Numbered from the stretch's first letter, positions 1-22,399 are shown. The stretch is 22,958 nt of DNA from Emiliania huxleyi CCMP1516 (GCF_000372725.1 NW_005202427.1:1276459-1299416); one strand, 5' to 3'. Numbers and translations are program-made. Notes: generated by a model from the letters alone, not told the origin.

Positions 1-1509
1 GCGCTCGCCGACGAGGTGTACACGTCCGCGCGCCTCTACAACCTCTACCACCACCTCGCCGTCCTCCCGGGCAAGGCGCGCAGCCCACCACACACCGCCA
101 CGCCCACACACCGCCACGCCACCACACACCGCCACGCCCACACGCCACCACACACCGCGCTCCACCATCACACCGCACGCCACCATCGCACCACCGCTGC
201 ACCCAGCCGCCTGCACCCCGGATCCCCGCCGCCCCCCCCCCCGAGCCCGGCGCGCCTCTAACGCCCGAGATTACCCGAGATTACCCGAGATTACCCGAGC
301 CCGGCGCGCCTCTAACGCCCGGCCCTCGAGCCCGGCCCACCCGCGTCGCAGGCGCACCTCCCCTGGCGCACCTGGCCGCGCGGCTTCCCGCTCGAGTCCA
401 TCAAGGACAACGCAACCACGTCCGCCGCCTTCCGCCGGCGCGCCCGGCCCTCGCGCCACATCCAAACCCTGGCCCTGACTCTTACCCTGCCCTGGCCAGA
501 ACACCCTAGGCGCGCCTGGCCCTCGCGCCGCATCGGCGTCTTCCAGTCCCTCGCGAACCACGACCCCGACGTGGACGGAATCTACCGGCTCACCCAGGAC
601 CTGCCCCTCTCCTTCAAGCCCTCCCTCGCCGGCACCGGAACCTCGTCCGCAGCGCTCGCAGGCCGGCCCCTCCCCTCTCCGTGGAGGCCCGGCGAGGCGG
701 CGCCCGAGGCGGCGCGGCCTCCGCGCACCGGCCCCGCGCCGAGCCGGCAAGGCTCTGGCCGCTCGCTGGCCGAGCAGGGCGGGGGCGGCGGGCAGGGCGC
801 GGTGGCGGCGGCCAGCAGGGGCGGTCGGCGGCTGAGCGGCGCGGAGGGGCGCGCCGCGCCGCCTCCGCTCCACAGTGCCGCCGCCGCCGCTGGCGGCGGC
901 GGCGGCGGCGCGGCGCATGCGGCGAGGCCATCTGCAGCGCGGGCGGGCGGCGGCGCCTCCTCGCGCGCTATCACTCTGCGCGAGGGCAGCATGATGCCGT
1001 ACAACGCCCAGGCGACGCTGCACGCGCAGCGCGCCCTCTGGTCGCTCCTGCTCCCGTGCTCCGTGCACGGGCGGGTGACCGACATCTGGCGCGCCTACTT
1101 CGCGCAGCGGCTGCTCTGGGACGTCGGGCTGCGGCTCGCCTTCTCGCCGCCGTGGGTGGTCCAGTTCCGCAACGCGCACAACTACCTCGCCGACTTCAAC
1201 TCGGAGGTGCCTCTCTATCAGCAGGCGGGCGCGCTGGTCGGGGCGCTGCTCCGCTGGCAGCCGGCGGCGAGGACGCTGCCCGGCCGCTTCGAGGAGCTCT
1301 ACGTCCACATGTACGAGCTCGGCATCGTCGGCCTCTCCGACGTGCGGCTGGCCCAGGCTTGGCTCGCCGACCTCGACCGCATCGGCTACCCCTTCCCGCC
1401 GATCCTCGACCGGCCTCCGCGGGCGGTCAAGCCGGCGAGGAGCGGCGGGGTGCGAGAGAGGCATGGAGAGAGGAGGGCCGCGACGAGTGGCGCCGGCCAG
1501 GCTACGTAG
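1..1509 (+). CDS. STELLO-like (DUF288) glycosyltransferase-related protein, 5'-partial, spliced (exons ~<1-75, 352-437, 510-1509)
   Basis: Spliced translation gives WPRGFPL, QSLANHDPDVDGIYRL, VHGRVTDIWRAYFAQRLLW and QFRNAHNYLADFNSEVPLY, matching STELLO/DUF288 motifs as I recall them. GC-AG introns at 76-351 and 438-509. The low-complexity 640-960 stretch may hide another intron. Confidence 0.85.
241..321 (+). repeat. 27-nt direct repeat (241-267, 295-321) flanking about 3 copies of the 10-mer CCCGAGATTA, inside intron 1
   Basis: CCGAGCCCGGCGCGCCTCTAACGCCCG occurs twice, separated by AGATTACCCGAGATTACCCGAGATTAC. CACACCGCCAC-type repeats also fill ~85-195. Confidence 0.95.
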
Positions 1510-1733
1510 AGACTAGAGTCCAAAACGTGAGGAGCCGCCGAGGTCCTGAGCGCTGAGGAGGGCGCAGAGAGGAGTTTTTGTCCGGCGCGTGGTCTCTCTC
1601 ATAAATGATTCTAGGGGACTCTTCTCTTCAGTCCACGACGAGCCTCTCTCGGACTCGGTCGCCTCGACCGTGTTCACACGCACATCATGCGCTTGGTGGG
1701 CCGCGGCGGCCGGGGCGGCGCAGCCGCAGGAGG

Positions 1734-2927
1734 TTACCTCGTGCCCCGCAAGGTGAGATCATACGTCCGTCGCTTCCGAGGGTCCGAGAGCACCGCGTGC
1801 GCCTCCTGGAGTCGCTTGAACGACTCCTCTGCCAGCGCCTCGCCATTCTTGTCGGGGTGGAGCTTACGTGCTAGCTTTCGGAACGCCTTTCGGACCTCCT
1901 CCTCGCTCGCCGTGCGCGGCAGCGAGAGCACCGTGTAGTGTGTCTCCGCGCGCAGCACTGCTCTCATCAGCTGAGCCAGCTGCGTGTCCTCTGGCGTCTG
2001 CTGCGGCGCCGCGGGCTCGCGCCCATCGCCCGCCCCGCTGCGGCGCGTCTCTCCCCACACCGCCCGCGGTGCTGCCGCCGCCTGCGCCGCCAGCCAGAGC
2101 AGCCCGGCCGTGAGCATGGCCCACAGATGGGCGAGGGCGGCGGCAAAGGCGGCAAAGGCGGCGACGAGCGCGGTGGACACGGCGTTACCCTCCACCCAGG
2201 CTGCCGAAGCACGCCCACCCGCCGCCTCCGTGTCTTTTGGGCGTGCCGCGTCCGCCCCAGGCCCCGCCGCCGCCCCTGCCGCCGCCCTCGCCGCCGCCCC
2301 TGCCGACCTGGGCCTGACAACCTCCACCTCGGCCTCGGCCTCCGCGGCGAGGCGCGCGGCTGCGAGCGCGGCGGCGTAGGTGGCGTTCCCGGGCTGCAGG
2401 GCCACAGCGCGGCTCAGCATCCGCACCCTCTCGCTGCTGATGCTCGTGCTCCGCATTGCTCGAACGTACCAGCTTGCCGCCGCCTCTGCGTTGGCAGCCC
2501 CGCGCGCCTGCTCGCGCGCCTCCTCGAGCGCGGCGCGAGCGGACCGCTCCAGCTTCGCCGCCGCCTCGGCGCGCGCGTGCGAGGTGCGCGAGTCCGAGCG
2601 GCGGGCGGCGGCCGCGGCAGCCTCCAGCACCGCCCTCGCTCGCTCGACCTTTCGCCGCCTCTCATCGTTGTCGGAGGCGTCGCGCTCGCGTCGGCGAGGA
2701 AGGAGCCGCTGCCGGAAGCCACTGAGGTAGGAGCGGCTCTTGGAGGCTCGTGGTCCGCGCGGAGACTTTGTCAGGCCGGCCTCGTCCATTCGCTTGAGCG
2801 CGTCGGCGTACAGCGCGGTGGACGGGCTGAGTCGCCTGGCCCGCCTGAGGTGAGAGATGGACGCGGACAGGTCCTCCTCCTCTAGGGAGCGCAGGGCGCG
2901 CTCGAAGGCCACCGAGGCCTCCGTCAT
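1734..2927 (-). CDS. DnaJ (Hsp40) J-domain protein with C-terminal J domain, hydrophobic segment and TPR-like helices
   Basis: 397-aa ATG ORF ending THYTVLSL...VRKAFRKLARKLHPDKN...FKRLQEAHAVLSDPRKRRTYD, with an intact HPD motif. Confidence 0.9.
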   Translation of the reverse strand: MTEASVAFERALRSLEEEDLSASISHLRRARRLSPSTALYADALKRMDEAGLTKSPRGPRASKSRSYLSGFRQRLLPRRRERDASDNDERRRKVERARAVLEAAAAAARRSDSRTSHARAEAAAKLERSARAALEEAREQARGAANAEAAASWYVRAMRSTSISSERVRMLSRAVALQPGNATYAAALAAARLAAEAEAEVEVVRPRSAGAAARAAAGAAAGPGADAARPKDTEAAGGRASAAWVEGNAVSTALVAAFAAFAAALAHLWAMLTAGLLWLAAQAAAAPRAVWGETRRSGAGDGREPAAPQQTPEDTQLAQLMRAVLRAETHYTVLSLPRTASEEEVRKAFRKLARKLHPDKNGEALAEESFKRLQEAHAVLSDPRKRRTYDLTLRGTR

Positions 2928-3295
2928 GTGTGTGTTGTGCCACCGACTCGCTGTCCGACAAGGATGGCTGACTGCCGAAAAAGGAGCGGGCGGGCCTCTG
3001 CGCCGGGGAGGCGTTGTTGGCGGCTAGGACGCAAGCGTCCGTCGCCGTTTTCAAACTCGGGGCCCACTCCGCTACGCCCTACGCTCCGACCCGAATTTGG
3101 AGGGCCATGAAATTTAAGGTGTTGCTGCGCAAAAGGGGTGGCGCGCGGGCGCGCGCGCGGCGGCGGGCGTCGAGCGCGGAGCGGCAAACACAATGACGTC
3201 GGAAAGCTCTGCATCAAGTACGATACAGTAGGCTCTATAGCACGGAACCAGAGTGCAAAGCATCCTCTCCGTCCCGTGCAAAAGAGTGGCGAGGG

Positions 3296-4206
3296 CTCTG
3301 GGGGGGCGCGGGGGCCCCCGGAGGCACCGTGCGCCGCGCCGCAGTGCGGAAACGGGGCCCCGGCTCCGTTAGTCTCCGTTAGCACCAACTTCCCGAATCA
3401 TTACGGTTGATTAGAGGGCATATTTGGAGAGATCTCGAGGAGTACATACAGATAGACCCTCCAACCATCAGAAACCTCCGACCTGATCGGTCGTACTGAC
3501 CGCCGACAGATCACCCCAGACAGCAGACAGGCCGACGTCTGCACGCGGCCGGCCGGGCGAGAGGCTTGACACGATCCGACCCTGCGACCATGACGCTGCT
3601 GCTCTAGCTATCAGACATGCACTGCTGACTGCTGCCACAATGTGCGACCTGTGCTGGCCCACTTGGCGGCCTTCCCGGTCGGTGGTGAGGCGCAGTTCAG
3701 AGCTGTCGATGGCGCGATGCCGCACTGGTCCCACATTGGTGACACGAGACCACCAAGTTTGCCGTTCCAAGAGAGAGGTACCGGCGCTGTCCTGAGAAGG
3801 TGCGTGGTCCCTCTTGACTGCCCATGCGCGCGAGCGTGCGTAGGCATAGCCTCGAGAGTGCCAGCAGCCAATCCGAGGCGACGCGCATTGATTGCGCCAG
3901 AAGCGTGCACACGTTGGAAGGACACCTTCCTACTGGCCGTACGATCAGACAGGTCGTCACTGAATGCTTGATACTAAGGCCGCGAGCTATGCAGGTGATC
4001 AATTGTGCAGCAGGGCACGGTCAGCAGCGCCGACAGGCTGTCGCAAGGCGTGATAGCATGGCCGCAATACGCCGAATTCCCATGAACAAGTAAAAAATCG
4101 CGCGAAAAAAGAAAAAAATCTCGAAAAATCGGCGCCTGCGGCGGGCCGTGGGACCCCATCTCCCCCCCGCATGGGTACCCTCTAGGGCCCCCGCGCCCCC
4201 CCAGAG
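3296..4206. mobile_element. Non-autonomous DNA transposon (911 bp), perfect 22-bp TIRs, 8-bp TSD
   Basis: CTCTGGGGGGGCGCGGGGGCCC at 3296-3317 is the exact reverse complement of 4185-4206. GGCGAGGG flanks both ends (3288-3295, 4207-4214). No transposase ORF is recognisable inside. Confidence 0.9.
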
Positions 4207-4313
4207 GGCGAGGGCCGCGGATGGCGCACGCGTTCGCGTGGGAGGCGGGGTGAGGTGCCGCAATGCCAGCAGACGTTTACCTTACCTTACCTTACCTTAG
4301 ATGGACCGCCAGA

Positions 4314-6236
4314 TTAGGCCTCGCGGCCGCGTCTCCCGCGCGCAAAGAGCAAGTTTTCGCAGTGGCCTAGAGCGTGTAGATGCGTTGTGTGAGAGACGAG
4401 TCAGTGCGCGAAAAAGGGCGCAAGAGCCTAAGGCCTCGTCGGCGGCGAAAGTAGCCAGAGCCACGTACTAGTGGCAGCAAGCCTGTAGGGGCGGGCCGGT
4501 CACTGTCAACTCGGCGAGCCGCAAGCATTCACCTTCTTCTCGCAATCTCTTGGGCACCCAGCAATGCCCCAAGCGCTCCACGTCGGAGCGTCTAGGAGGC
4601 TGCATCTCTCGGAGCTCTAAGCCGGGCATCTCGGCGGAATCTCACCCATCTGCTCGCCGCCCGAGCACCAATCGGCGGAGGCATCGTACAGCTGGTGGCC
4701 TGTTCACGCGTCGTCTTCTGTGAAGAGGCGCATTCGACGAGGGCGGAGGAGCCACACAGCCGGCAGCGACCGGAGCGGCGTAGCAGTGCAAGCAGGCGGC
4801 CGTACCCCAGGAACGTCGCATTGTCTGGCGCCCACTTGAGAGAGAGGTGGACCTACGTGCTGAATACGCCGACATGAGGGCGGGAAGACGGTATTGTGCA
4901 GCGTATTCAGAGCACCGCGTGAACACGATGAATAGGAATTACAGCGGAATACGGGTGAACACAGCGGAATACGTGTCCTCTCGGGCGCTGGTTGGGATAC
5001 AAGAGTACGTATTCCGCTTCTAGGGAGGTGGACCTCGAGGGCGAACTGGTCGACGGTGGCGAAGAAGAGCGGGTTGTGGGCCACCGTGTCGGCGTACAGC
5101 GAGTACTCGCAGCCCTCGCAATCCATCTTGAGCACTGCCTATTCACAGCTAGAGGTGTGAAGAGACGCTGTTCACAGCCTCCTCGCAGTCCATCTTGAGC
5201 ACTGCCAGTGGCGCCGCCGGCGCATCGACGCCGCCGCCGCGGCCTCCTCCCGTCACCCTCCTCCCGACAGCCTCCGTCGGCCCGACCGCTCTGCGGAGCT
5301 CAGCGCTGCCAGGCGGGCGCAAGCGGTGGGATGGGCGATCGCCTAAAAGACATGTCTCGGACATGACCTGGACGTGTCCTGGACATGCCTCGCGGTGGGA
5401 CGGGCGATCGCCCCCGCGTATCAACACCTCGAGATTGCGGGAGAAGACCGCCTCGTCCGCGAACCTACGGGAGGGGGCTGTGAGGCTCTGGGACGCTTTC
5501 GAGAGGGCTCCGAGACGGCCAACGAAGCAAGGGACATGATGTCGGTGAGTCTCTCGCAGCCGCTAGCCTCTCTCGGCTAGACCTCCTGGCTAGATGTCGT
5601 CTATATCTCGGCAAGATCACAGATCGCGACCAGATTGCAGCCCGATCACAGATCGCGGACATATTGCAGCCAGATCGCGGCTAGATCGCGGCTGGTGCAG
5701 ATCTCTGCCAGCTCTCTAAGCTCGGCGAACCTCTCAGCGGTCGCGAGCCGAGTCAGGAAGGACGGACCAACAGTCCGCCAGCCCGCACCAATCCGCGGCT
5801 CCGGCAGCAGTGCAGCGAGGCTGCAGTTCGGCCGCATGCGAGGCGAGGCGCCCGGCCCGCACATCAGGCGAGGCGTGCTCGCCGGCGCCGCCCAGGGCTT
5901 GAAGAAGACGTTCGGGCCGAGGCGCGGCGGGTGGCGCACCGTTGGATCGCACGCCACCACGCGGCATCCCGTCCGGTTGGCGAGCTCGAGCTCGAACCAG
6001 TAGTTACGCTCCACCCCGTAGCTCACAACTGTGCACGCGCCGGCCTCGTACTCTGCATGGCAGAGCACGTGGACGCCGTATGTGCTCCCGCCGTGCCCAC
6101 GGCCAACCCTCATCCGCTCGCACGACGGCAAACCAGCCTGCTTCCGGCGCAGCCGCAGGTCGATGGCCTCGCCGGTGGCGATTAGCGCTTCGAGTGCTTC
6201 CGAGTCGGTGACTGGCGCGTACGATGCCATGTACAT
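4314..6236 (-). CDS. SAM-dependent methyltransferase, Methyltransf_22/METTL24/FkbM-like; exons 6236-5731, 5464-5412, 5342-5206, 5138-5034, 4852-4771, 4699-4646, 4482-4435, 4366-4314
   Basis: Motifs CTVVSYGVERNYWFE...CRVVACDPTV, VLKMDCEGCEY, VDQFALEVH, YGRLLALLRRSGHQL and HCENLLFAR join in frame across seven GT/GC-AG introns to TAA at 4316-4314. The start codon is uncertain. Confidence 0.82.
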
Positions 6237-6319
6237 GCGGCCTCGACGGAGCTTGCCAGGACACTCACAGGACACACAGAGGCGACCATACGTGAGTGCC
6301 GTCCTGTTCAGACCGTCAT

Positions 6320-6485
6320 CACTTTGATCATGGTCGGATCATGGTCCGATCACGGTCGGAACAGATGGGGCCCGTGGTGACGGCCCTATTTCCGGACCTT
6401 GATCCTTTCGTGATCAGCCCATGTTCCGACCATACTCGAACCTATGTTCCATCCGTGATCGGCACATGGTCTGACCATGTTCGAA
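6320..6485. repeat. Degenerate 10-11-mer repeat tract (GATCATGGTCG / CCGACCATG) in both orientations
   Basis: Repeated ATGGTCGGA and TCCGACCAT variants. A + strand GTGAGT donor-like site lies just upstream (~6293), so this may be an intron remnant. Confidence 0.6.
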
Positions 6486-6779
6486 GAAGCGGCCCCGGCC
6501 CAGGCCCCGGTCGCCCCGGCCGCGACGGAGGCAACGCTCGACGACGAAGACGACGATGCCTCCGGCCCGTCCATACTCCTCCGTGCCGCGGCCGAGATGA
6601 TTGTAGACGAGGCGGAACGCAACCGCCACATTGACGCAGCCGAGGCGCTGCTCGGGCTAATTCCGACTGTGGACCTGGAGACCAGCGTCATGGGCGTTGG
6701 CGGCGAAGGAGAGGAGCCTGCCAATGAGGTCGGTGCTGGCGGCCCTGGGCCCGTAAATGGCGAGCCAGACGCCGGCCCA

Positions 6780-7330
6780 TCACCGGGAAGGGAGGCGCCG
6801 AGGCTTGGCGCGAGGCGTGCCTGGCATGTGAAATTTGTGCTCCGGGGTGTACTTGATGGTAGGGTGTTGTCCTCCCAAGATCTGCTCAGAGTCTCGGTCA
6901 TCGAAGCCGTAAGAGGTGTACTCTTGGAACTTCATGACAACCTTACTCGACCCATCTGTGATGCCGAGCTCATTTGGGGTGAACGTCGCCCAGCAGGTCT
7001 CCTCGCCGACTTCGTGGGAGCCGGAGTAGTGCAACTCACAAGTGCCTATCGGTGGCTGCGGCTTGGGGACGACGTGGACCGGGATCTGGATCGATTTCGG
7101 AGAGTCGGCCGCGCCGTCCAGAGTGACCGTGCACCTGTAATAGCCGTCCACCCCAACGGTGGCGGTGCTCTGCGCCCGCACGAAGCATTAGTCGTCGCGC
7201 GGACTGGTGAACACGTTGTCAGACTTGGTGAATTTAAACGTGGCGCCGTCGGTGGTCTGCTTGTCGTTGCTCCGCGCACACCTAATGCCGGTCGAGGACT
7301 GCCCGACATAGAAGGACAGAGAGTCGAGAG
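6780..7330 (-). pseudogene. Disrupted coding fragment, beta-rich/Ig-like appearance, unidentified
   Basis: ORFs 7188..7442 and 6780..7181 share a frame and are separated by one TAA. The joined sequence has protein-like composition (FKFTKSDNVF...DGYYRCTVTLDG...IQIPVHV). Confidence 0.4.
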
Positions 7331-7410
7331 GTGCGGCCCGTCCCAGCCGTCTCGTGTTGAGAGGCGTGGGTGGGGCGGTCAGAGTAGGGGCCGCAGAACG
7401 TCCAGGGGAG

Positions 7411-7717
7411 GTGGACGCGGACCTCAACCCGCTGCCCGTCACCGTCCGCGTGGGGACGGCCGTCGACGTCGTCGGGCTCGCGGGGCGGTGCTCGGCTAAA
7501 CCAGACCAGGCGGTCCGGCGCCGCGACTCCTTTCTTACGGCGGCTCGACTCCTTGTTTAGGCCGAAGACGATCACGGGCTTCCAGACGCACACCACGCCC
7601 GTGCTGCTGGCCATCGGCGAGCGTGCCGAGCTCGCGACGGACGAGTACCTGCCGCTCACCTCGGTGCTCGAGGGCGTGGTCATCCTCAAAAAGAACCCAG
7701 AGTTCGAGGGGCAGTGA
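7411..7717 (+). pseudogene. RPN1: 3'-terminal fragment of 26S proteasome regulatory subunit RPN1/PSMD2 (exons 7411-7487, 7561-7717)
   Basis: Spliced peptide [77 protein letters not shown] matches the conserved RPN1 C-terminus. GT-AG intron at 7488-7560. No upstream RPN1 exons are visible. Confidence 0.88.
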
Positions 7718-8206
7718 GGAAGCACGGCGAGGCGCGGTAAGACGCGGCGCATGCGTGGCGAGGCGGGGGGGGAGGGGGGGGATGCCGCCCACACGCCACA
7801 CGCACACCCACAGGTGCCACCTCGCCTCGGGAGCCCCGCCGCGACTTGCCATTTCGCGCCGCCAAAAGGAACCGTCTCTGGCGTCCAACGAGCTTTTTTG
7901 TATTGAAGAGATTCTGACGTCTGTCATCAGTGACACGAGCGGTGTCCCTTCTGACCTCCCGCGTCCCGGATGAGGGGATGACCTGGCAGCTGGCTGCTCC
8001 CGTCAGGAAGCGGAGAAGCGCGTCCACCGCCGGCGCTCCCGGCGGCGCGCGCTCTCCGTGAAATTCACACCCAGAATATCTCGGCCATGCCACACGCCGG
8101 CCCGCTCGTCTCGCCCCGCCGGGTGCGGAGTCGGCTCCGCGGATGACTAAGATATAACGTTACGTATCTACCGCCTACCGGGAACTGATTCAAGATAAGA
8201 GTAACT

Positions 8207-9427
8207 CTACCATCTTTGCGAGGCGGCGCCTTGCACGCAGATTAATCGCTCGGCGGGGCACAAAGCATTCTCACCCAACACGTGCGTGGTGCCCGTTCTC
8301 CGGAGCTCTGTCGCCACCTCAGAGGGCACGCGCCCCTTGTGGCAGTTGAGGTGCAGCTCGATCGGCCAGACTCCCACGCGAGTCTGAGTTGTCGTACTGC
8401 CATTGGCCAGCGCTCGCCGAGCGGCTTGCATGAAGGCGAGCTGGCTGCGGCTCTCCTCTGCGGCTGCGACGTCGGCCGCGTAGCGAGCTGTGGCAACGCG
8501 GAAGAGCAAGGCATCGTTGGTCGTGTACAGAGAAAATGCATCCTGTACGTGCTGCTTCATAATCGCTTCGTTGAGGACCTTTTCGGAGCCGGCGTTTGAG
8601 TTGCACGAAGGCAAGCGAGCAGAGAGGGGTCCCGGTGCGCCCTCACTGTGCGAGGCGGGCAAGTAGACACCGATACGCGCCATCAGAAACCAGAGAAACT
8701 CGTTGAGTCGCGCGCTCGGTGCCACGTAGTCGTAGGCCGCTAATAGCTGCGCGTAATGCAGCGGAGTTGAGAGGTTGAGGGTGGAGCTGATCCCGCTATT
8801 CAGCCACCGGCTCTGCCGATCCGGGTTTTGGGCTAGCCACAGAGCGAGGTCGTCGGCGAGCAACGTGGCATTCCTCCGCACGCTCGAGGTGCGAGAGAGC
8901 GATGGAACCACACCAAGCCCGCCGTCGAGCCGAAAGTATCGGTATGCAGACCGCTGAAGAGACTTTGGCTCACGCACCACCGTCACGACCTGGAGCATGC
9001 ATGAAGCGTCGCGATACATCTTGCGGAGCTGCGGCAGGTGCGACAGGAAGAGCCGCATGTCACGGCCGTGAGGGTGATAGGAGTGGTAGATGTGCGTGCG
9101 GTGCCACGAGGGCAGCAAGGTCGGGACCTTGTGCCTCTGAAACCGCAGGCCCAAGATGGCGTGGAGCACATCGTTTGGGAAGTGGTGACTAATGGAATGT
9201 GTCGCAACGTAGGACCCCTCCGAGACCGCGCTCCAGTTCTTGCCAATCATACGTCCACTCACATTGACCTCGGGCGGCCTAGCGTTCGCAAGCGCCCAAA
9301 ACAGATCGTCGACGGTGGTACCGCCCGTCTTTGGGATGTGACCAAAGACGGTGAGCGAGCATGTGCCGGCGTCGGAGCGAACGCCTTTCAGCGTCGGATG
9401 AAGATATCGTCGTTCGGCGGCGCTCAT
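8207..9427 (-). CDS. Sulfotransferase family protein (Golgi/galactose-3-O-sulfotransferase-like), single exon, ~406 aa
   Basis: 5'-PSB motif VFGHIPKTGGTTV and 3'-PB motif VTVVREPKSLQRSAYRYF. First ATG at 9427 (MSAAERR). The upstream extension of the 623-aa ORF overlaps METTL5 and low-complexity DNA. Confidence 0.8.
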   Translation of the reverse strand: MSAAERRYLHPTLKGVRSDAGTCSLTVFGHIPKTGGTTVDDLFWALANARPPEVNVSGRMIGKNWSAVSEGSYVATHSISHHFPNDVLHAILGLRFQRHKVPTLLPSWHRTHIYHSYHPHGRDMRLFLSHLPQLRKMYRDASCMLQVVTVVREPKSLQRSAYRYFRLDGGLGVVPSLSRTSSVRRNATLLADDLALWLAQNPDRQSRWLNSGISSTLNLSTPLHYAQLLAAYDYVAPSARLNEFLWFLMARIGVYLPASHSEGAPGPLSARLPSCNSNAGSEKVLNEAIMKQHVQDAFSLYTTNDALLFRVATARYAADVAAAEESRSQLAFMQAARRALANGSTTTQTRVGVWPIELHLNCHKGRVPSEVATELRRTGTTHVLGENALCPAERLICVQGAASQRW

Positions 9428-9680
9428 CACGAGCGGCACTGAGGTAAGAGGCAGCGTTAACCAGCGGGCGGCGGCGCTTTCAAGGTGCCTTGTTTCATGT
9501 TTGCCCGGTCGGCCGTTGCATTCGGGGTTTTCTTCTTGTTCTCCAGAAGAAAAAAAAGTTGTCGGTTCGGCACCGGGCACCGCCTCGGTACACTCTGCCT
9601 GCGGGCCGACGTTCACATTTCGACTTTTTGTTCTTTCCTGCTCCCCGCGCGCTCTCTCTCTCTCATGCTCTCTCTCTTTC

Positions 9681-9976
9681 TCACGACGGCACCTCCTCCT
9701 CCCCCTCCCCCTCCTCGCCCCCGCCCCCTCTCTGCACTCTCCAAAAGTCGACCGCCACGTCCTTGCTCGGCTGCCGGTGGTGCTTGTACATTCTGGGGAT
9801 CTCGAACCGCAGCTCCGCCACCACGGAGGCCTCGCCGCCGGCCTCGGCCGCCTTTTTCGCGATGAACGGGCGGGTGGAGGTCTTGTGCAGCGAATAGACC
9901 GCGCCGCCGGGCCGGCAGAGCCGCAGCCCCGCCTGCAGAAACGCCACGTCCGCGCCGTGCGACTCGCTTCGCGTCC
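9681..9976 (-). pseudogene. METTL5: C-terminal part of METTL5 (18S rRNA m6A methyltransferase), lacking a visible N-terminus
   Basis: TRSESHGADVAFLQAGLRL...AVYSLHKTSTRPFIAKKA...VVAELRFEIPRMYKHHRQPSKDVAVDFWR matches the METTL5 C-half. Homology stops just after the expected position of the catalytic NPPF motif. Confidence 0.82.
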
Positions 9977-10020
9977 TCTTGTAAGGACGATCAGGGACAC
10001 AGGGGAAGGGGAGCGGGGAG

Positions 10021-10201
10021 CGCATCCCGTAAAAAGAAAGAAAACAGACAGCCCAAGGGAGGGATGGGAGGACGGCACGCCGCCACCACACAGGGATTTT
10101 AAGAAGAGGGGTGTGGTGCGCTAGCCGTCGCATCCCGTATAAATAAATAGAGCAGTCATCTCCAGGGAGAGATGGGCGACGCATCCCGTGCCCAGTGTTG
10201 T
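10021..10201 (-). mobile_element. Two tandem short retro-tail-like inserts (10031-10128, 10139-10179) separated by three copies of CGCATCCCGT
   Basis: The 10-nt direct repeat sits at 10021, 10129 and 10180. Each insert starts (+ strand) with an A-rich microsatellite, (AAAG)n or (TAAA)n. 45 nt (10139-10183) are identical to 15113-15157. Confidence 0.75.
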
Positions 10202-10326
10202 GCGGGGTGTAAAATTCTTTTCGCAGACCCGGCACGGCGTGACAGGCGCCCCAGGCGCCCAGGCGCACTGAAACACCTCGGGAGCCGCCAAGAGCGGCCA
10301 GCCTTCGCACCTATCGGACCTCTGCC

Positions 10327-12828
10327 ATGGCCCTCACCTGCGGCCGAGCCGCCCTCGCGCTGCTCGCCGTCTACGTGGCGATCCTCTCGCACACGCTGCT
10401 CGAGCTCTTCTACCCGTCGCCGTGCCGCGGTGCCGCCTGTCTGCAGCCGCTGCTGCGCAGCGGCGCCGCCGTCGACCTGCAGGCGCACATCGACGGGCGG
10501 CTCGTCTGGAGCGCAGCCGGTGTGAGCAGCGGCGCAGGCCTCGAGGACGTCGCGTTTGCGGTCCCGGTCCCGGCCGAGGTGCGGCTGGGCAGTCGAGAGG
10601 AGCTGCATCTCGACTTCTCCATCGCGCTCGCCGGTCAGCAGCAGCCCATCGCGCACGCCCGGGCGCTCCTCTGCGCGCGCCGCCAGCCGCGACGCCGCAG
10701 CACCGCCCGCATGCTGCTCGCCGAGCCAGCCGTCTCCTCCACGCCTGGCTCCGCCACTTCCGACTCTGCCGCCGCCGCCGTCCCCGCCGCCTTCGCTTCC
10801 AGCGAGCAGAGCGGCGTCGCCGTTTCCAGCGAGCAGAGCGCCGCCTCCGTATCCAGCGAGCAGAGCGGCATCGCCGTTTCCAGCGAGCAGAGCGGCGTCG
10901 CCGTTTCCAGCGAGCAGAGCGGCGTCGCGCCGCCCAACGAGCGGGGCGAGGTGCCGCACTACCTCTATGCGGCGGCGAGCCTCGAGCTGCGGCTGGTTGC
11001 CGACGAGACGCCGCACGCCGGGCCGGTGCTGCCGAGCGACGGGGCCCAGGTCGCGAACGGCGTGGACTGGTCTCGGCGCGTGTACGCGCCTCGGCTCTAC
11101 GTCGACGAGCTCGGCCTGCTGGGCAAGCACGCGCTGCCTCTCTCGAGCGACGTGGGCAAGGAGCCTCCTCGGCTGCGGCTGCGGCTGCTGCCCATCTCCC
11201 TCGGTCGGTACCGCGCCACGCGCCAGCTGCACACGGCGCTTGGCGCGCTGCAGGCGGCCAGCGGGATGGAGGCAGTTTGACGCGCTGCGCGAGCTGTGCC
11301 TTCCCCCCTGAGCCTTCTCTGAACCTTCTCTGAACCTTCCTGCAGGCCGAGTTCGACGAGCTACGCGAGCTGCTCTCCGAGAAGCGCCTCTACCGCTTCG
11401 CGCTGATGCAGCTGATCGGGCTGCTCCACGTCGTCTTTGACGCGCTCGCCTTCCGGAACGACGTCGGCTTCTGGAAGGGGCGGGAGGACCTGAGGGGCCT
11501 GTCCTCGCGCGGCGTCATCTTCAACGCGGGCTCCACGCTCGTCATCTTCCTCTACCTGCTCGACGGCGACGGCGTCAACTCGATCGTCCTCGCTACCTAC
11601 GCCTTCTCCACCGCCCTCGAGCTTTGGAAGCTGACCAAGGTGGTTGCGATGCGGCGGCGGGCGCGCGGCGCGGCCGGCGGCGCCGGCGGCGAGGGCGCGC
11701 GCGCCGAGGCGGCGACGGAGCGGTTCGACGAGGTTGCGACGCGGCACTTGACGTGGGGACTCGCGCCGCTGGTCGTCGGCTGGGCGCTGTACGCGCTGCT
11801 CCACTACCCGCACGCGTCGTGGCGCGCCGCTTCCCCGCCGTCCTCCCGCCAGCCCCGCCTCCGAGGGGGCGAGTCACCAACCTTGGATTCTGCACCCTCT
11901 TGTCAGGTACAGCTGGCTGCTCGGCTCGCTGGCCGACGCGATCTACCTCTTCGGCTTCATCGCGATGACGCCACAGCTCTTCATCAACTACAAGGCGCCG
12001 AGAGGAGCCGAGATGGCCCGAGATGGCCCGAGCTCTCCCAAGATCCCCAGATCTTCTTCAGCCACAAGGCGGTTCGCTGCTCAACCCCCCCGCACCCTCC
12101 AGGCCTCTGTCCCTCCCAGGGCACCCCCCTTCCCCGTGCCCCTGCCTGCGCCAGACCAGCCCCCTCGCTTCTGCCGTCGCCACGGCGCGCCGAGGAAGTA
12201 CACACGCCGTTTCGAGGCAGAGCTCCCCCGCCCCCCCTCGCGCCAGATGAAGAGCGTCGCCCACCTGCCGTGGCGCGTCCTCGCGTACAAGGCCTTCAAC
12301 ACCTTCATCGACGACGCCTTCGCGCTGATGGTCGCGATGCCGACCGCCCACCGCGTCGCCTGCTTGCGGGACGACCTCGTCTTCCTCGTCCTCCTCTACC
12401 AGCGCCGCCTCTACCCCGTGGACCGGAAGCGCGCCAATGAGTTTGGCATCGCGTACGAGCGGGACGAGGCGGACGTCGCTCCCGCGCGAGGGGAGGGCAG
12501 CGCGGGAGATGGGGCCGAGGAGGGGCCTGCTAGAGGGGTGGAAGCGGAGGGCCTGCTAGAGGGGTGGAAGCGGAGGGCGAGGTACCCACCCGCCTCCTCG
12601 ACCTCCCCACGGAGCTCCTCGTGCGTGTCGTCTCTCGCTGCGACCCCGCCGACATCGCTCGCGTTGCGGCCGTCTCGCACATCTTCCACGCCTCGCTTGC
12701 GAAGGAGGGCATCCGCTTGTGGGCGCAAGAGCGCGGCTTCGAGCTGGCGGCGCAGCCAGAGGGCGAGGGCTGTGCCGTGCGGTGGCTGTGTCTCGCTGCC
12801 TTGCTGCGCGAGTCCAACCCGCCGGTGA
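10327..12828 (+). CDS. CLPTM1: CLPTM1-family membrane protein; exons 10327-11271, 11346-11821, 11907-11994, 12247-(12828); aberrant 3' end
   Basis: Motifs FDALAFRNDVGFWK, WYSWLLGSLADAIYLFGFIAMTPQLFINYK|MKSVAHLPWRVLAYKAFNTFIDD and YQRRLYPVDRKRANEFG. Three GC-AG introns keep the frame. Homology ends at ~12460 and the frame runs on to 12828, overlapping the next ORF. Confidence 0.9.
10798..10929 (+). repeat. Coding minisatellite, ~5 x 27 nt (SSEQSGVAV)
   Basis: TCCAGCGAGCAGAGC units begin at 10798, 10825, 10852, 10879 and 10906. Confidence 0.95.
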
Positions 12829-13946
12829 GGGCGTCGACAGGCCGCTCCCACAGCGTCTTCATCGACGGCGAGGGGCGCCTCTCGTCGTGCGGCAGTGAGT
12901 GGAGCTACACAGGCCTGCCTCGCCGTCCAGGATTGCTCGGGCACGGCGAGGGGGTGACACGGCTCGACACGCCGACGCGCCTCTCGTCGACGCTGGGCGG
13001 CGAGCGCGCCGTGAGCGTGTCGGCTGGAGTCGGCCACACCCTTGCCCTCACCGCTGATGGCGCTGTCTGGAGCTGGGGCGATGGAAACTACGGCCAGCTG
13101 GGCCACGGCGACCGGCAGTACCAGCTGCTGCCCAAGAAGGTCGAGGCCTTTGCTGGTCAGCACGTCGTCGCCGTGTCGGCTGGAGATAGCCACAGCCTCG
13201 CCATCACCGCTGACGGCGCTGTCTGGAGCTGGTGCCAGGGAGCCTGGGGCCAGCTGGGCCACGGCGACAAGCAGCCCCAGTGGCTGCCGAAGAAGATCGA
13301 GGCCTTTGCTGGCCAGCGCGTCGTCGCTGCGTCGGCTGGAGCGCAGCACAGCCTCGCCCTCACCGCCGACGGAGCCGTCTGGAGCTGGGGCTGGGGAGGC
13401 GATGGCGTGCTGGGCCACGGCGACCGGGAGGACCAGCTGCTGCCAAAAAGGGTCGAGGCCTTTGCGGGTCGGCGCGTGGTCGCTGTGTCGGCTGCAGACC
13501 GCCACAGCCTCGCCCTCGCCGCCGACGGAGCCGTCTGGAGCTGGGGCGAGGGAGGGTCGAAGGGAGGGGAAGGCTGGCTGGGCCACGGCGGCGGGCAGCG
13601 CCAGCTGCTGCCGAAGAAGGTCGAGGCTTTGGCTGAACAGCGTGTCCTCGCAGTGTCGGCTGGAGCGGCGCACAGCCTCGCCCTCACCGCCGACAGCGCC
13701 GTCTGGAGCTGGGGCTGGGGAGCTTGTGGCCAGCTGGGCCACGGCGATCAGCAGAGCCGGCTGCTGCCGAAGAAGGTCGAGGCCTTTGCTGACCAGAATG
13801 TCATCGCTGTGTCGGCTGGAGTTCGCCACAGCCTCGCCCTCACCGGCGATGGGGCCGTCTTTACTTGGGGCAAGGGCGACACCGGCTGCCTAGGACACGG
13901 AGCTGACCTGTCGAAGCAGCTGCTGCCCAAGAAGGTCGAGCGATAG
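12564..13946 (+). CDS. F-box-like + RCC1-repeat (7-blade, UVR8/HERC-like) protein, intronless, no ATG in frame
   Basis: LLDLPTELLVRVVSRC (F-box-like) is followed by seven repeats of the type SAGxxHSLALTADGAVWSWGxGxxGQLGHGD...LLPKKVEAF. An in-frame TAG lies at 12531 and the ORF is annotated from GTG. Confidence 0.88.
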   Translation: MEAEGEVPTRLLDLPTELLVRVVSRCDPADIARVAAVSHIFHASLAKEGIRLWAQERGFELAAQPEGEGCAVRWLCLAALLRESNPPVRASTGRSHSVFIDGEGRLSSCGSEWSYTGLPRRPGLLGHGEGVTRLDTPTRLSSTLGGERAVSVSAGVGHTLALTADGAVWSWGDGNYGQLGHGDRQYQLLPKKVEAFAGQHVVAVSAGDSHSLAITADGAVWSWCQGAWGQLGHGDKQPQWLPKKIEAFAGQRVVAASAGAQHSLALTADGAVWSWGWGGDGVLGHGDREDQLLPKRVEAFAGRRVVAVSAADRHSLALAADGAVWSWGEGGSKGGEGWLGHGGGQRQLLPKKVEALAEQRVLAVSAGAAHSLALTADSAVWSWGWGACGQLGHGDQQSRLLPKKVEAFADQNVIAVSAGVRHSLALTGDGAVFTWGKGDTGCLGHGADLSKQLLPKKVER

Positions 13947-14150
13947 CCGATAGAGTCCTAGACCGGGAAACCGATGAGCAGAGATTTTGCTGGTCAGCAA
14001 AAGTTTTCAGTAAAAATGTTCACCAATCAAAAGGTCGAAACCGAACCCGCCGCGAATTCTTTTTGAGTATGGGCGGCCTTTGCACGGCGGAGGAGGCGGA
14101 GGGGGACGGAGGCTCGCCGTCGGGGTTGGTCGGCGCTCGAGGCGGCTGTT

Positions 14151-14678
14151 GTGATGGAGTGCCGCCGTATCGACGCGGGCGGTTGGGGGGGGGGGTGCAG
14201 CGCTCGCTGGCTGGAGCTCGACGCGATCGCGGCGCGGATGCGTCGCGATCTCGGCGATCCTAACCCGGGCGCTTACCCTGTCACGCTGTTCTTGTCGAGG
14301 CCAGAGGGTCTGGGTGCACGCGGGGCGGCCGCGGAGGCGGCGTTTAGGCGGCTCTCGATCGAGGAGCGTGACGAGGTGGTCGCGGCGCTCGTGGCGGAGT
14401 TCAAGGCGGGGGAGCGGAAGGAGTTGTGCGGCTGGCATGCCGGGCGTGGGGTCCGGGCGTGGTCTGCTCCGTTCCCAGGGTGGGAGGATTGGGTGAGGGA
14501 GGGGCGGCTGCTCCTCTGGGAGGAGGACCTGGAGGAGTTGCGGAGCGGTGCTGGCGGGGGAGGGGGCGGGAAGTCCCGCCACGAACGCCGGCGGGGGGCG
14601 CGGCGGGAGCGACGGGGGGGGGGGGGGGGAGGGGAGCTTCTATTAGAAGCCGTCGTCCGCGCTTTGCCTGTTGTGTGA
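14151..14678 (+). CDS. Hypothetical ORF, possibly the 5' ORF of the retroelement remnant downstream
   Basis: ATG ORF with protein-like composition (AFRRLSIEERDEVVAALVAEF, FPGWEDWVREG). Family not recognised. Confidence 0.3.
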   Translation: MMECRRIDAGGWGGGCSARWLELDAIAARMRRDLGDPNPGAYPVTLFLSRPEGLGARGAAAEAAFRRLSIEERDEVVAALVAEFKAGERKELCGWHAGRGVRAWSAPFPGWEDWVREGRLLLWEEDLEELRSGAGGGGGGKSRHERRRGARRERRGGGGGGELLLEAVVRALPVV

Positions 14679-14776
14679 ATCGTGCGTGTGCTGTGGCGTA
14701 GCGATAGTCCCCGCCGTAGGACGGTATGCGGCGATCGCCGCCCACCACCCTGCCCCCCCTGGTATGCCATCGACCC

Positions 14777-15055
14777 GTGCAGCTGCTGCTGTTCGAGTCG
14801 TTCGGCGGGTTCGGGAGGGGGGTCCGTGAGATCCTCTGGAAGGCGGCGGACGTGCTACAGAACAAGCTGACGCGGGCCCAATACCTCGATGAGGTGACTT
14901 GGACCACTAAGAATTGGCTGGGGCTGCAGAAGCAGCGTATCTCAGTCGTTCTTCACACGGCAATCGCAGAGCAGGTTGTGAATGAGCTTGCCTGTGGCGG
15001 GGGTGGGCGGGTGCACGGAGCTAAGTGCCTCGCCACCCTCGCAGGAGTCGCTTAG
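14777..15055 (+). mobile_element. C-terminal restriction-like endonuclease fragment of a CRE-like non-LTR retrotransposon
   Basis: VQLLLFESFGGFGRGVREIL...QKQRISVVLHTAIAEQV fits the E(T/S)xGG...QRxSxxL pattern ending CRE-type RLE domains. No RT domain upstream, so it is truncated or internally deleted. Confidence 0.65.
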
Positions 15056-15109
15056 GCGGCTCCCGTGGTGTACCTGTGTTAGTGCCAGTGCGCGCCAGTC
15101 CCGTGCCCA

Positions 15110-15165
15110 TAAATAAATAAATAGAGCAGTCATCTCCAGGGAGAGATGGGCGACGCACACGAACA
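15110..15165 (-). mobile_element. 56-nt retro-tail-like insert with (TTTA)n tail and 14-nt TSD
   Basis: CAGTCCCGTGCCCA occurs at 15096-15109 and 15166-15179. The insert shares 45 identical nt with 10139-10183. Confidence 0.8.
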
Positions 15166-16152
15166 CAGTCCCGTGCCCAGTGTTGTTGGAGCCGTAGTCC
15201 TTTTCACCACCCAAGACAGCTTGGAGAGCTCCCGGTAAGGCTACATTTCGTAACGATCGTCGCTATTGGCCATCTGCCTCCTGCAGCCTCTGTTGGGGCG
15301 GAATGCGCGGGGTTTTCGGCGCAATGCCTCCGGCTAGTACACGGTACTGCTCTGCCGCAAACTCTCCTGCGCTCGCGTGACGTGTGGGGCACACGCACTG
15401 CGCTCGAAAGTCGCAATTTGGCAATAGGCGCTCGAGCCGGCGCGCAGTGGAGGGGGCGCCGCGCAGGGGGATCGGGGGGGTGCGAGAGGGGGCGTGGGTC
15501 GGGCGCGCACCGGCCGGCTCCGGGAGCGGCCGTCACGTCGAAGAGGGGACCTGGTGCTGCTCGAATGACGACGCATGCCGCTCTGCTGCGCCGCCGATAG
15601 CCCCTCTTCCGAGCCGGCGCGTGGCGGCGAGCCGCGGCCAGTATCGCTGGTGCGGTGGAGGCGGCAGCTTGCATCGGCCGGCAGCGGGTGCGGCCATCAC
15701 GTCGATGAGGGGGGGTTGTCGGCGACTCGTGTGGCTCGAGGCCTACGCTGACCGCCCAAGCCCTACTGCCGATCCAGCGCCTGGCGTTTGGGGCGAGCCG
15801 CGGTCGTCGTCGCTGATGGTATATGGCGGCGGCGGCGGCGGCTCGCCCTTCCCTCCGGCCGCAATTCCGATCCCGCCGCGCGGGAGTTGGCGCGCCCACC
15901 GCGGCACGGCGTGGCTGCGCATACTGCATACACCTTACGCCCTTTCTCCTCAACGGCTATCCGTGCTTGCTGTGCCCCTGCGTGGTGTGTTTCAAGTTCT
16001 TACAACCCAAGGTGATAGAGGGCAAAAAGATCGATTGCGCTCTTGCCGATCCGCACCTACCTAGGCTCTTGGGTGGCGCGCCCCAGCTCTTCACAGCGAA
16101 CCTGGTTTTTGGGCTTGCGCTTCTCGCGCCGAGCTCGACGAGAGTGACGAGA

Positions 16153-21252: not shown

Positions 21253-22399
21253 ATGTTGCTGCTGTCGCTGCCTCTGTTTCCCTCCGGTTTCGTGCTCCTC
21301 AGCGGTGGGGCTCCTCGCTCCTCGCTGGCTCCGCCGCGCACCGGCGCGGCTCTCAGCATGCGCGACGACCAGGCGACCCGGGACGACGCGCCGGGCCAGT
21401 CCTTCGACAACGACATGAGCGGCTGGAAGCCGCCGGGAGGCGGCGGCGGCGGCGGCCACGGCCTGGGTGGCGACACCTCGAAGTTTACCACGACCGACTC
21501 GCCCGACTTTCTCCCCGAGGAAGGGAGCGAGGAGGCGAAGCTCGCGTCGGGCATCAGCTACACCGACGGGATGATGGGCAGCCAAGCGGACCCGAACCGG
21601 AAAAAGTCGACGGGTCCCGAGCTGGCTGGCGCGCTCGACTCGGACCCGGACATCTACGTGCCGGAGGTGGAGGAGGTGGTCGCCGACTCGAGCCTCTTTG
21701 TGCTGCCAGAGGCGTCTTGGAAGCTGTCCAAGATGGAGGCGCGCCTCCTCACCTGACCTCTTCTCGCACCCCTCCCTGCGTGCGCGCCCGTCGCCGGCCC
21801 ACTCGCCGTCCCCGAGCCGCGCAGGTCTAACCCTAACCCTTACCCTAACCCTAACCCTAACCCTAACCCCGAGCCGCGCAGGTCTCTAACCCTAACCCTA
21901 ACCCTAACCCTAACCCTACCCTAACCCGAGCCGCGCAGGTCTCGCAGACGGACGAGGACCTCGAGTTCAGCTGCTCGGCGACAGAGGGAGGCGCGATGAA
22001 GGCGCGCGGAGGCGCACTGCCTCGGCCACGCTGCTCGGAGAGGGCGAGGTCGCTCCGCCGCGTCGCAGGTTGACGTCAAGCCCGTCTGCATGACCTTCGA
22101 GGACTACTACTGCGGCTTCACCTCCGACTCGCACCCCGCCTTCTCCGTCTCGCCCGACGCCGGAAAGATGGAGCGGCGGAACGGCCCGCCCACGACCGTG
22201 ACCGTGACCTGCAACCCGAAGGCGAGCCGCGACGCCCGCGGCCCGGCCGCTGCCCCGTACTCCCGCCCCCGCGACCCGCCCAACCGACCCGCCGCGACCG
22301 CAGGGCGCCTCCGGCGCGCTGGTCGGCTACCTCTGCTTCATCCTGCCCGAGGAGAGGGACTTTTCAACCTTTTACAAAGTCACGTGCAACTCGCGGTAG
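21253..22399 (+). CDS. Probable plastid-targeted protein of unknown function (exons 21253-21738, 21939-22001, 22069-22221, 22304-22399)
   Basis: Signal/transit-like N-terminus (MLLLSLPLFPSGFVL...AALSM). Three phase-0 GC-AG introns give a continuous frame through VDVKPVCMTFEDYYCGFT...GYLCFILPEERDFSTFYKVTCNSR*. Confidence 0.75.
21811..21942 (+). repeat. Interstitial telomeric (CCCTAA)n tracts between three copies of the splice-acceptor region CCCGAGCCGCGCAG|GTCT
   Basis: The 18-nt copies start at 21811, 21868 and 21925 (period 57) and are separated by ~6-7 CCCTAA units each. Confidence 0.97.

What the first reader, a model, noticed from the sequence alone, without database searches (positions are those of the whole stretch)
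4853..5730. Introns that begin with a copy of the next exon's first bases: candidate intron-birth mechanism
Seen: four consecutive introns of the methyltransferase gene (- strand) are bounded by direct repeats, with simple-repeat filler between them. 5139-5205 repeats GGCAGTGCTCAAGATGGAyTGCGAGG (26 nt, 1 mismatch). 5343-5411 repeats GGCGATCGCCCrTCCCACCGC (21 nt, 1 mismatch) around CATGTCCAGGA-like 11-mers. 4853-5033 repeats AGGTCCACCTC around CGTATTCCGC-like units. 5465-5730 repeats AGGTTCGC around GATC-rich 10-mers. In each case the first copy supplies the GC/GT donor and the filler ends in TAG exactly before the second copy, so splicing would restore the coding sequence. Inference: an insertion process that duplicates its target and lays down simple repeats (repair synthesis or target-primed reverse transcription) creates introns de novo, helped by a spliceosome tolerant of GC donors. 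Unlike introner transposons, the fillers are not homologous to each other.
Basis: partly seen in the sequence, partly recalled or inferred. Interest (0 to 1): 0.9.

Follow-up and report, generated by a model that had tools for sequence, protein, structure and literature searches.

The report
Introns born by copying other introns
In the bloom-forming alga Emiliania huxleyi, many short introns begin with a 15-37-base copy of the coding sequence that follows them and end with a piece shared with introns in unrelated genes, so new introns are likely made by duplicating the landing site and copying in the tail of an existing intron, a route that standard searches for intron-making transposons would miss.

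Summary
The four introns are real: one RNA contig skips all four. Each starts with a copy of the next exon's start; this is strong for two, modest for one and borderline for one. The DNA is Emiliania huxleyi. Intron 3's filler was found in 63 metagenome stretches (one a look-alike from another organism); 65 of 70 scored copies sit between 15-37-base duplications in introns of 61-77 bases. In an insulysin gene, 18 of 22 introns carry the trace, and three relatives lack the three such introns that could be checked. Three introns carry pieces of another gene's intron start, one whole intron was copied into an unrelated gene, 5' joints show microhomology, and one 51-base insertion is polymorphic with a single repeat copy left. 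Best reading: a staggered break is filled by copying the tail of an existing intron, probably from RNA (inferred). A published introner survey lists only 56 E. huxleyi introners with 2-4-base duplications. This scan noted the same footprint earlier in another haptophyte (e1-2577349).

The parts
4481..6236 (-). Host gene, methyltransferase-like (weak Pfam Methyltransf_22 match of its relative P0001, below the family cut-off); at least six introns
5465..5730 (-). Intron 1, 266 nt, GT-AG; 8-nt repeat (5732-5725 and 5466-5459); filler of 10-11-mers, single-copy by depth; duplication borderline (p 0.029)
5343..5411 (-). Intron 2, 69 nt, GC-AG; 21-nt duplication with one mismatch (5412-5392 and 5343-5323); filler 5387-5343 is an 11-mer array of a family also found in duplication-flanked introns of L020 and L056
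5139..5205 (-). Intron 3, 67 nt, GC-AG; 26-nt duplication with one mismatch (5206-5181 and 5139-5114)
5139..5178 (-). Family element 'F3': 38-40-nt high-copy filler (TGTGAA...TTCACA...GCTGTGAATAG) that supplies the acceptor; four hypervariable bases in the loop of its predicted 3' hairpin
4853..5033 (-). Intron 4, 181 nt, GT-AG; 11-nt repeat (5035-5025 and 4854-4844); 172-nt high-copy filler with weak terminal inverted repeats, relatives in L054 and L012
4700..4770 (-).
4483..4645 (-). Intron 6, 163 nt, GT-AG; no duplication trace (score 0)
438..509 (+). Predicted 72-nt GC-AG intron of another gene with a 25-nt duplication (2 mismatches); no RNA joint seen
11272..11345 (+). 74-nt GC-AG intron of the CLPTM1-family gene with a decayed duplication (score 12); skipped by RNA contigs of X11 and X12
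21810..21943 (+). Three copies of an acceptor-spanning 18-20-nt stretch separated by TAACCC telomeric filler, at the end of a predicted intron; the filler does not end in AG

Best explanation
These are young introns, each likely made when a staggered break 15-37 bases wide in an exon was filled by copying the 3' part of an existing short intron, probably from intron RNA by a reverse transcriptase. Shown: the duplicated target gives the G-C/G-T donor, the copied piece gives the AG acceptor, and splicing restores the coding sequence. Shown: fillers fall into families, the copied piece sometimes brings along the tail of the parent intron's own duplication, and 5' joints sit at microhomologies. 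Inferred: the free 3' end at the future acceptor primes synthesis on the template, stops short of the template's 5' end and anneals to the overhang, as in 5'-truncated LINE insertions. Inferred: each new intron can serve as a template in turn, so families form by serial copying with no dedicated element, and telomeric or 10-11-mer fillers spread the same way once present. Inferred: only insertions that can be spliced survive in exons, which the known GC-donor tolerance of this species makes common. The duplicate-and-copy anatomy is about 0.85 likely; the RNA and reverse-transcriptase step is the uncertain part.
For: 65 of 70 scored F3 copies have a duplication of 15-37 nt, and 68 of 70 are followed by G. 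Loose ends of family contigs pile up at 5137/5138 and 5176/5178 in three DNA-type runs, so the 3' end at the acceptor is sharp without my pattern imposing it. Of 15 spacers of 9 nt or more between duplication and core, none matches its own locus except a tandem self-copy. Three match the end of another gene's F3 intron start, directly against the core: L001 from L024, L034 from L049, L007 from L056. L036 holds a complete 74-nt copy (97%) of the insulysin intron of L055, from its GT to its AG, in an unrelated gene, with no duplication and no flanking similarity; both ends of that template are splice sites. 5' microhomology averages 3.0 nt against 0.95 in a rough null, and 17 of 29 evaluable sites have 3 nt or more. 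Variable target duplication, 5' truncation and 5' microhomology are described for LINE inserts (PMC4245944, abstract and passages). The window holds a broken fragment at 20203-20859 whose full-length relatives carry Pfam RVT_1. Three relatives read through three such intron sites of the insulysin gene. One 51-nt insertion is present in L028 and absent in L057 with one 9-nt copy left.
Against: No enzyme or RNA intermediate is shown; the reverse-transcriptase fragment is only co-resident. Total length is tight (61-77 nt, SD 3.4, against 8.2 if duplication and filler lengths were independent). Simple priming and truncation does not predict this; it needs selection on intron length or a ruler, and error in placing the duplication end inflates the contrast. 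Duplication-plus-filler insertions whose filler does not end in AG exist (L004, L014, L034, L035, an antisense F3 copy at the start of L055, window 21810-21943; read by eye), so templates are not always copied from a splice-site end. My collection pattern required the TAG end, which biases the sample. The F3 hairpin is not unusually stable (z -1.7). None of this gene's four introns was absent in three DNA-type runs or in L017. The 266-nt intron has a unique filler and a borderline repeat. Duplicated copies already differ at 69 of 1622 positions, so most events are not very recent.
Confidence: 0.5

Rival explanations
1. Same anatomy, DNA template: a break with long 3' overhangs is repaired by microhomology-primed synthesis (polymerase-theta-like or one-ended strand invasion) from another intron's DNA, from telomeric DNA or by slippage, and selection keeps the products that splice.
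For: Fillers that do not end in AG and antisense insertions inside introns. Microhomology at both joints of the telomeric filler at 21810-21943 (read by eye). Wide filler diversity, with most non-F3 fillers unclustered. A 68-nt indel in an intron of L044 that looks like a captured acceptor-plus-exon piece. Short repeats at gained Daphnia introns were read as break repair (PMC3488318, passage).
Against: Spacers are not copied from nearby DNA (0 of 15). The family's 3' end is sharp at AG-G across the genome, and 6 of 7 F3-like copies that my pattern did not require to end in TAG still end in AG-G. The complete intron in L036 has both ends at splice sites.
Confidence: 0.27
2. Intron transposition with overwrite: a whole intron is reverse-spliced into another mRNA and copied to cDNA, and during recombination into the gene its first 15-37 bases are replaced in register by the start of the next exon.
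For: It explains the constant total length. L036 is a whole intron with no duplication and the same length as its parent (74 and 74), and L007 matches L056 (71 and 71). The sense strand was the best coding frame at 44 of 58 sites (weak codon model). The reverse-splicing model is listed in PMC3296678 (passage).
Against: The other two parent-daughter pairs differ by 5 and 10 nt. An antisense F3 copy with a 20-nt duplication lies inside an intron. The overwrite step has no precedent that I found.
Confidence: 0.12
3. Ordinary introners: several short non-autonomous transposon families with fixed ends, each carrying the acceptor and taking the donor from a target duplication.
For: F3 is 92-100% conserved at 33 of 38 positions (partly imposed by the search pattern). 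The same donor/acceptor logic is described for Polarella classes 4, 5, 6, 8 and 10 (10.1101/2020.10.14.339549). The 172-nt filler of intron 4 has weak terminal inverted repeats (9 of 10 matches, p 0.02) with a 9-11-nt repeat, so this reading may fit that intron.
Against: Duplications are 15-37 nt and variable, against the 3-8 nt fixed per class in that preprint. The 5' end is not fixed and carries pieces of other genes' exons. Telomeric, AT-rich and 10-11-mer fillers share the same geometry (49 non-F3 introns, 68.2 +/- 5.8 nt).
Confidence: 0.07
4. Old introns whose 5' ends were later overwritten by the next exon, and whose 3' ends were homogenised by gene conversion; no intron birth is involved.
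For: All four window introns are fixed in the strains examined, and the tight length is expected if pre-existing introns are overwritten.
Against: Three relatives are continuous across three such sites while sharing a break of their own elsewhere. P0002 is continuous at the intron 3 site and shifts frame a few codons later. The L028/L057 polymorphism leaves exactly one repeat copy.
Confidence: 0.04

Closest known systems
Introner-like elements of Symbiodinium and Polarella glacialis (Roy et al., bioRxiv 10.1101/2020.10.14.339549; parts 1-2 of 4 read)
   Same: Donor taken from the 5' end of a target duplication starting G-H, acceptor carried by the element, families of similar introns, frequent GC and GA donors.
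   Different: There the duplication is 3-8 nt and fixed per class; for Symbiodinium the preprint also describes inverted repeats ending at the acceptor. Here it is 15-37 nt and variable, the 5' end is ragged, parent exon sequence is carried along, and unrelated fillers share one geometry.
E. huxleyi introner families in Gozashti et al. 2025 (PMC12130899; passages and Dataset S2 rows read)
   Same: Three families are listed for CCMP1516 (6, 5 and 45 introns). fam24 is about 70 nt, 'co-opt 5', carry 3'', noted '10bp terminal direct repeats', class unknown, and may be F3 or a relative.
   Different: Listed duplications are 2 and 4 nt and the total is 56 introns; the main text has no mention of huxleyi. 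The method requires similarity up to both intron ends and removes simple-repeat families, which would discard most introns described here. I could not see the family sequences, so identity with F3 is untested.
Target-primed reverse transcription of LINEs and their trans-mobilised RNAs (PMC4245944, abstract and passages; PMC9977147, passage)
   Same: Exact 3' joint, variable-length target duplication, 5' truncation with microhomology.
   Different: Here there is no poly-A tail or dedicated SINE body, the apparent template is an ordinary intron, and insert plus duplication is held near 69 nt.
Intron gain by break repair (Daphnia), by tandem duplication and by intron transposition (as summarised in PMC3488318 and PMC3296678, passages)
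   Same: Direct repeats at new introns; donor and acceptor from a duplicated AG-G site in some cases; one whole-intron copy (L036).
   Different: The Daphnia introns are described as having no obvious source and short repeats. Here the source is traceable to other introns, the repeats are long, and the exon usually lacks an AG before the donor, so plain tandem duplication would not splice.

Membership tests
Introner (transposon-derived intron family) | Similar introns at unrelated gene positions | tested here: met
   58 F3 sites in non-redundant loci; parent/daughter loci share only the element by blastn, with weak scattered tblastx hits for two pairs
Introner (transposon-derived intron family) | Similarity extends to both intron ends | tested here: not met
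   The first 25-39 nt differ in every site; only L036/L055 match end to end; criterion from PMC12130899
Introner (transposon-derived intron family) | Spliced out precisely | tested here: met
   RNA contig joints for the window gene; spliced alignment of P0003 to L055, 403 of 412 and 374 of 381 aligned codons identical
TIR DNA-transposon (MITE) introner | Short fixed-length target duplication | tested here: not met
   15-37 nt, mean 26.7, SD 5.3
TIR DNA-transposon (MITE) introner | Terminal inverted repeats | tested here: inconclusive
   F3 has a terminal direct repeat and an internal inverted repeat, not terminal inverted repeats; intron 4 filler has a weak 10-nt inverted match, p 0.02
Non-LTR retroposed element (TPRT product) | Variable target duplication, exact 3' end, 5' truncation with microhomology | tested here: met
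Non-LTR retroposed element (TPRT product) | 3' tail (poly-A or LINE-like end) and a partner LINE | tested here: inconclusive
   No tail in F3; a broken fragment with RVT_1-bearing relatives lies in the window, but no link to F3 was tested
Non-LTR retroposed element (TPRT product) | RNA intermediate and reverse-transcriptase dependence | not testable with these tools
   Needs experiments or raw reads; only contigs were available
Intron gain by tandem duplication of an AG-GT site | Intron is wholly a copy of neighbouring exon and the acceptor comes from the duplicate | tested here: not met
   Filler of about 42 nt is foreign; AG precedes the donor in only 24 of 65 copies, tandem internal copies included
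Intron transposition by reverse splicing | Whole intron inserted with no duplication | tested here: inconclusive
   Met by 1 site (L036), not met by 65 of 70 copies

The most novel reading that the evidence does not exclude
E. huxleyi and probably other haptophytes have a self-propagating intron-birth route with no transposon of its own. Any short intron can be copied, tail first, into a staggered break, the duplicated exon start becomes the new donor, and a length ruler near 69 bases fixes the product. This route made most of the short introns of some genes and may explain the species' majority of GC donors and its repeat-filled introns.
Probability: 0.45. Interest if true: 0.92.

Novelty: new variant of a known kind. 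Interest (0 to 1): 0.8.

Why it matters
Where new spliceosomal introns come from is a long-standing question, and most gained introns have no traceable source. Here the birth scar is long enough to read: the landing site, the parent intron and the 5' joint can each be identified, and decayed copies give an age series inside one gene. It offers an explanation for the 56-65% GC donors reported in this species (PMC4028052), since donors are borrowed from GC-rich exon sequence. It also shows a class of intron gain that current introner pipelines filter out by design, so its share in other eukaryotes may be underestimated. Practically, the in-frame duplicates mislead gene models: the CCMP1516 insulysin model P0007 reads into several of these introns (by eye).

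Tried and rejected
No whole genome is held for this window, so the genome-wide test could not be run; the sample is 55 non-redundant metagenome loci (150,739 nt) chosen for holding F3, which enriches for genes rich in such introns. The wide read-laying (1-17000) was swamped by repeats and gave few joints. The F3 pattern found nothing in viral contigs. A shorter form gave 18 prokaryote stretches: 17 had duplication scores of 7 or less and one (L074) is an unrelated tandem array, which serves as a negative control. L043 is a look-alike from another organism with no duplication and was dropped; L017 (same site as the window) and L048 (same site as L049) were dropped from site counts. Local templating of spacers was rejected. 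The four hypervariable bases of F3 are unrelated to the 5' joint, directly or inverted (p 0.82 and 0.79). The F3 hairpin is not significantly stable. Mirror test, intron end against previous exon end: 3 of 26 above the 95% null. The suffix-sharing test counted two rows from tandem copies within L056; without them 5 rows reach score 10 (null mean 0.38, maximum 4 in 60 shuffles) and 4 rows reach 12 (null mean 0.07, maximum 2). The codon model had one of three training stretches out of frame, so 44 of 58 sense and the 21:13:10 phase split are weak. Of ten same-site pairs, eight showed no intron-sized indel. In the window, three RNA-supported introns (4483-4645, 7488-7560, 16633-16742) and six predicted ones score 0-3, so the trace is not universal. 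The protein-atlas query used the wrong frame of the reverse-transcriptase-like fragment and is void, and the right frame did not complete there; its clade (RTE-like) is recalled from motifs, not tested. Runs X17 and X18 held none of the words and were not used.

Full report
Source and gene. An exon at 11346-11819 is 100% identical over 158 aa to a protein named from Emiliania huxleyi CCMP1516 (P0012), so the window is E. huxleyi or nearly so. The gene on the minus strand (ATG at 6236) has a transcript-derived relative at 89% identity over the first exon (P0001). That relative matches Pfam Methyltransf_22 weakly (E 0.002, below the cut-off). A majority of GC donors is already published for this species (PMC4028052, passages).

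The observation. The repeats are at the stated places. One RNA contig of run X11 skips all four segments and two more downstream; three DNA-type runs (kind guessed or unknown) show none of these joints. A spliced protein-to-DNA alignment blind to repeats gives 5730-5465, 5411-5343, 5205-5139 and 5033-4853. Against 650 mismatched pairs, with the first two bases left out, the four score p 0.029, 0.002, 0.002 and 0.006.

The fillers are families. In one search the summed contig depth over the intron 3 filler is 53,621, 17,831 and 101,536 in runs X1, X5 and X6, against 17.3, 5.6 and 55.6 on the first exon. The fillers of introns 2 and 4 are also raised (6,009 and 8,290 in X1) and intron 1 is at single-copy level. 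The tool warns that depth is no copy number, but loose ends pile up exactly at 5137/5138 and 5176/5178. A scan of metagenome contigs for the intron 3 filler (F3) gave 63 stretches. After merging same-site loci and dropping one look-alike, 55 loci of 150,739 nt remained. In 53 of these plus the window, 74 F3-like matches were found, 4 at contig edges. Of the 70 scored, 65 have a duplication of 15-37 nt (mean 26.7) that begins at the donor and restarts right after the AG. Intron length is 61-77 nt (68.8 +/- 3.4), and donors are GC 40, GT 19, GA 3, other 3. These are 58 sites, 5 of them tandem arrays of the whole unit.

It is a general process. A scan with no splice assumption found 218 direct repeats of 12 or more exact bases at 45-200 nt spacing, against 4-9 in three shuffles; 96 lie at 65-74 nt. 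In the 55-85 band, 85 of 134 have G-C/T/A at the first copy and AG before the second, against 21 of 134 for the mirrored test. Of 111 duplication-flanked candidate introns, 57 cluster with F3. The rest have AT-rich, 10-11-mer, telomeric or unique fillers, and the intron 2 filler recurs in L020 and L056. The 49 non-F3 introns have the same geometry (68.2 +/- 5.8 nt, duplication 24.0 +/- 6.3). For introns defined independently of repeats I used L055, the E. huxleyi insulysin gene, and the spliced protein P0003. Eighteen of its 22 introns exceed the 95% null: all 17 of 63-79 nt plus a doubled one. The four of 102-162 nt score 0-1. The locus was chosen for one F3 copy and is probably richer than average: in the window only about 6 of 16 RNA-supported or predicted introns show a trace.

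Gain, not ancestry. Three relatives of the insulysin (P0009, P0010, P0011; 63-70% identical; P0011 from a 51-kb contig) read without a break across residues 86, 127 and 139, where L055 has duplication-type introns. All three lose similarity at one shared later point, as an unspliced intron would cause; their identity and the DNA behind them were not seen. P0002 is continuous at the intron 3 site and shifts frame just after it. L028 carries a 51-nt insertion, a 9-nt repeat plus an AT-rich filler with GT and TAG ends on the minus strand, that L057 lacks, with one copy left; both keep their other introns. Its polarity and splicing are unproven. The four window introns themselves are present in all DNA examined.

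Where fillers come from. Between duplication and F3 core there is often a spacer. None of 15 spacers of 9 nt or more matches its own locus except a tandem self-copy. Three are the end of another gene's F3 intron start, that is, a piece of that gene's exon copy: L024 to L001, L049 to L034, L056 to L007. L036 holds the whole 74-nt intron of L055, insulysin-derived start included, at 97% identity, in an unrelated reading frame with no duplication. At 29 of 58 copies where the joint could be placed on the family consensus, exon and template overlap by 3.0 nt on average, against 0.95 in a rough null. So the template is an existing intron, copied from its 3' end for a variable distance.

Mechanism. 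Exact 3' end, variable duplication, 5' truncation and microhomology are the marks of target-primed reverse transcription (PMC4245944), and a copy bounded by both splice sites suggests intron RNA as template. A broken fragment whose full-length relatives carry a reverse-transcriptase domain lies at 20203-20859, but nothing ties it to these events. Against a strict RNA model, some duplication-plus-filler insertions do not end in AG, one F3 copy lies antisense inside an intron, and the near-constant total length is unexplained. I give 0.5 to RNA-templated copying, 0.27 to DNA-templated repair with selection, 0.12 to reverse splicing with overwrite, 0.07 to ordinary fixed-end introners (possibly right for intron 4) and 0.04 to overwriting of old introns.

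What is known. Ten full-text searches returned no paper whose title or abstract start describes this in haptophytes; most hits were seen as listings only. The closest description is the dinoflagellate introner preprint (3-8-nt duplications) and a review of transposon-derived introns (PMC11282704, passages). Dataset S2 of PMC12130899 lists three E. huxleyi families with 56 introns, one about 70 nt long with a note of 10-bp terminal direct repeats and a 2-nt duplication; it may be F3. Two of its 14 supplementary files were not searched and the family sequences were not seen. Its filter demands similarity to both intron ends and removes simple repeats. The E. huxleyi genome paper, which I recall reporting 10-11-bp repeats in introns, did not come up in these searches, was not seen, and could bear on novelty.

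Verdict. A real, RNA-confirmed feature that is part of a widespread intron-creating process in E. huxleyi. It works like an introner but fails the fixed-end and short-duplication criteria, so it is filed as a new variant of a known kind. Interest 0.8.

Noticed in passing
window 21810-21943 (+); L049 7595-7673; L015 about 700-760; L034 about 130-200: Telomeric TAACCC repeats as intron filler, C-rich strand on the apparent sense strand in these cases; in L049 with a 28-nt duplication. Could reflect telomerase-type extension at the break, or retention because CTAAC resembles a branch point (recalled consensus).
   Followed up: partly
F3 positions 24-27 (window 5150-5153, - strand): Four bases in the loop of the predicted 3' hairpin are hypervariable (26 types in 52 copies) while most other positions are 92-100% conserved. 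Several off-pattern copies keep the stem through G-U pairs (by eye). Unexplained.
   Followed up: partly
L037 position 306 against L044: 68-nt indel inside an intron with no clear duplication; the extra piece looks like an acceptor plus exon start from another gene.
   Followed up: no
L009, L056, L007, L030, L022, L055 570-703, L004 490-772: The duplication-plus-filler unit is itself repeated two to four times head to tail, giving stacked introns with no exon between them, as unequal exchange between the two copies would produce.
   Followed up: partly
window 20051-20910 (+): Frameshifted tail of a retroelement; full-length relatives of 800-1150 aa carry Pfam RVT_1; followed by a short CATA/CATT microsatellite.
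   Followed up: partly
window 12700-13946 (+): Open frame with 5.3 copies of a 156-nt repeat (RCC1-like by recalled motif), under very high contig depth in RNA runs, so a large gene family.
   Followed up: no
window 18525-19116: 179-nt tandem repeat, 3.3 copies, 96% matches; close to a nucleosome repeat length.
   Followed up: no
window 4277-4299: Five-base tandem tail (GGTAA on the minus strand) at the edge of a repeat-like region 3400-4300, downstream of the gene; possibly a retroelement end.
   Followed up: no
window 10797-10928 (+): 27-nt coding repeat in the CLPTM1-family gene; RNA contigs of X11 and X12 break across 10826-10899, suggesting copy-number variation between strains.
   Followed up: no
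window 7488-7560 (+): 73-nt GT-AG intron skipped in all four RNA runs in a region with no identified protein gene; no duplication trace.
   Followed up: no
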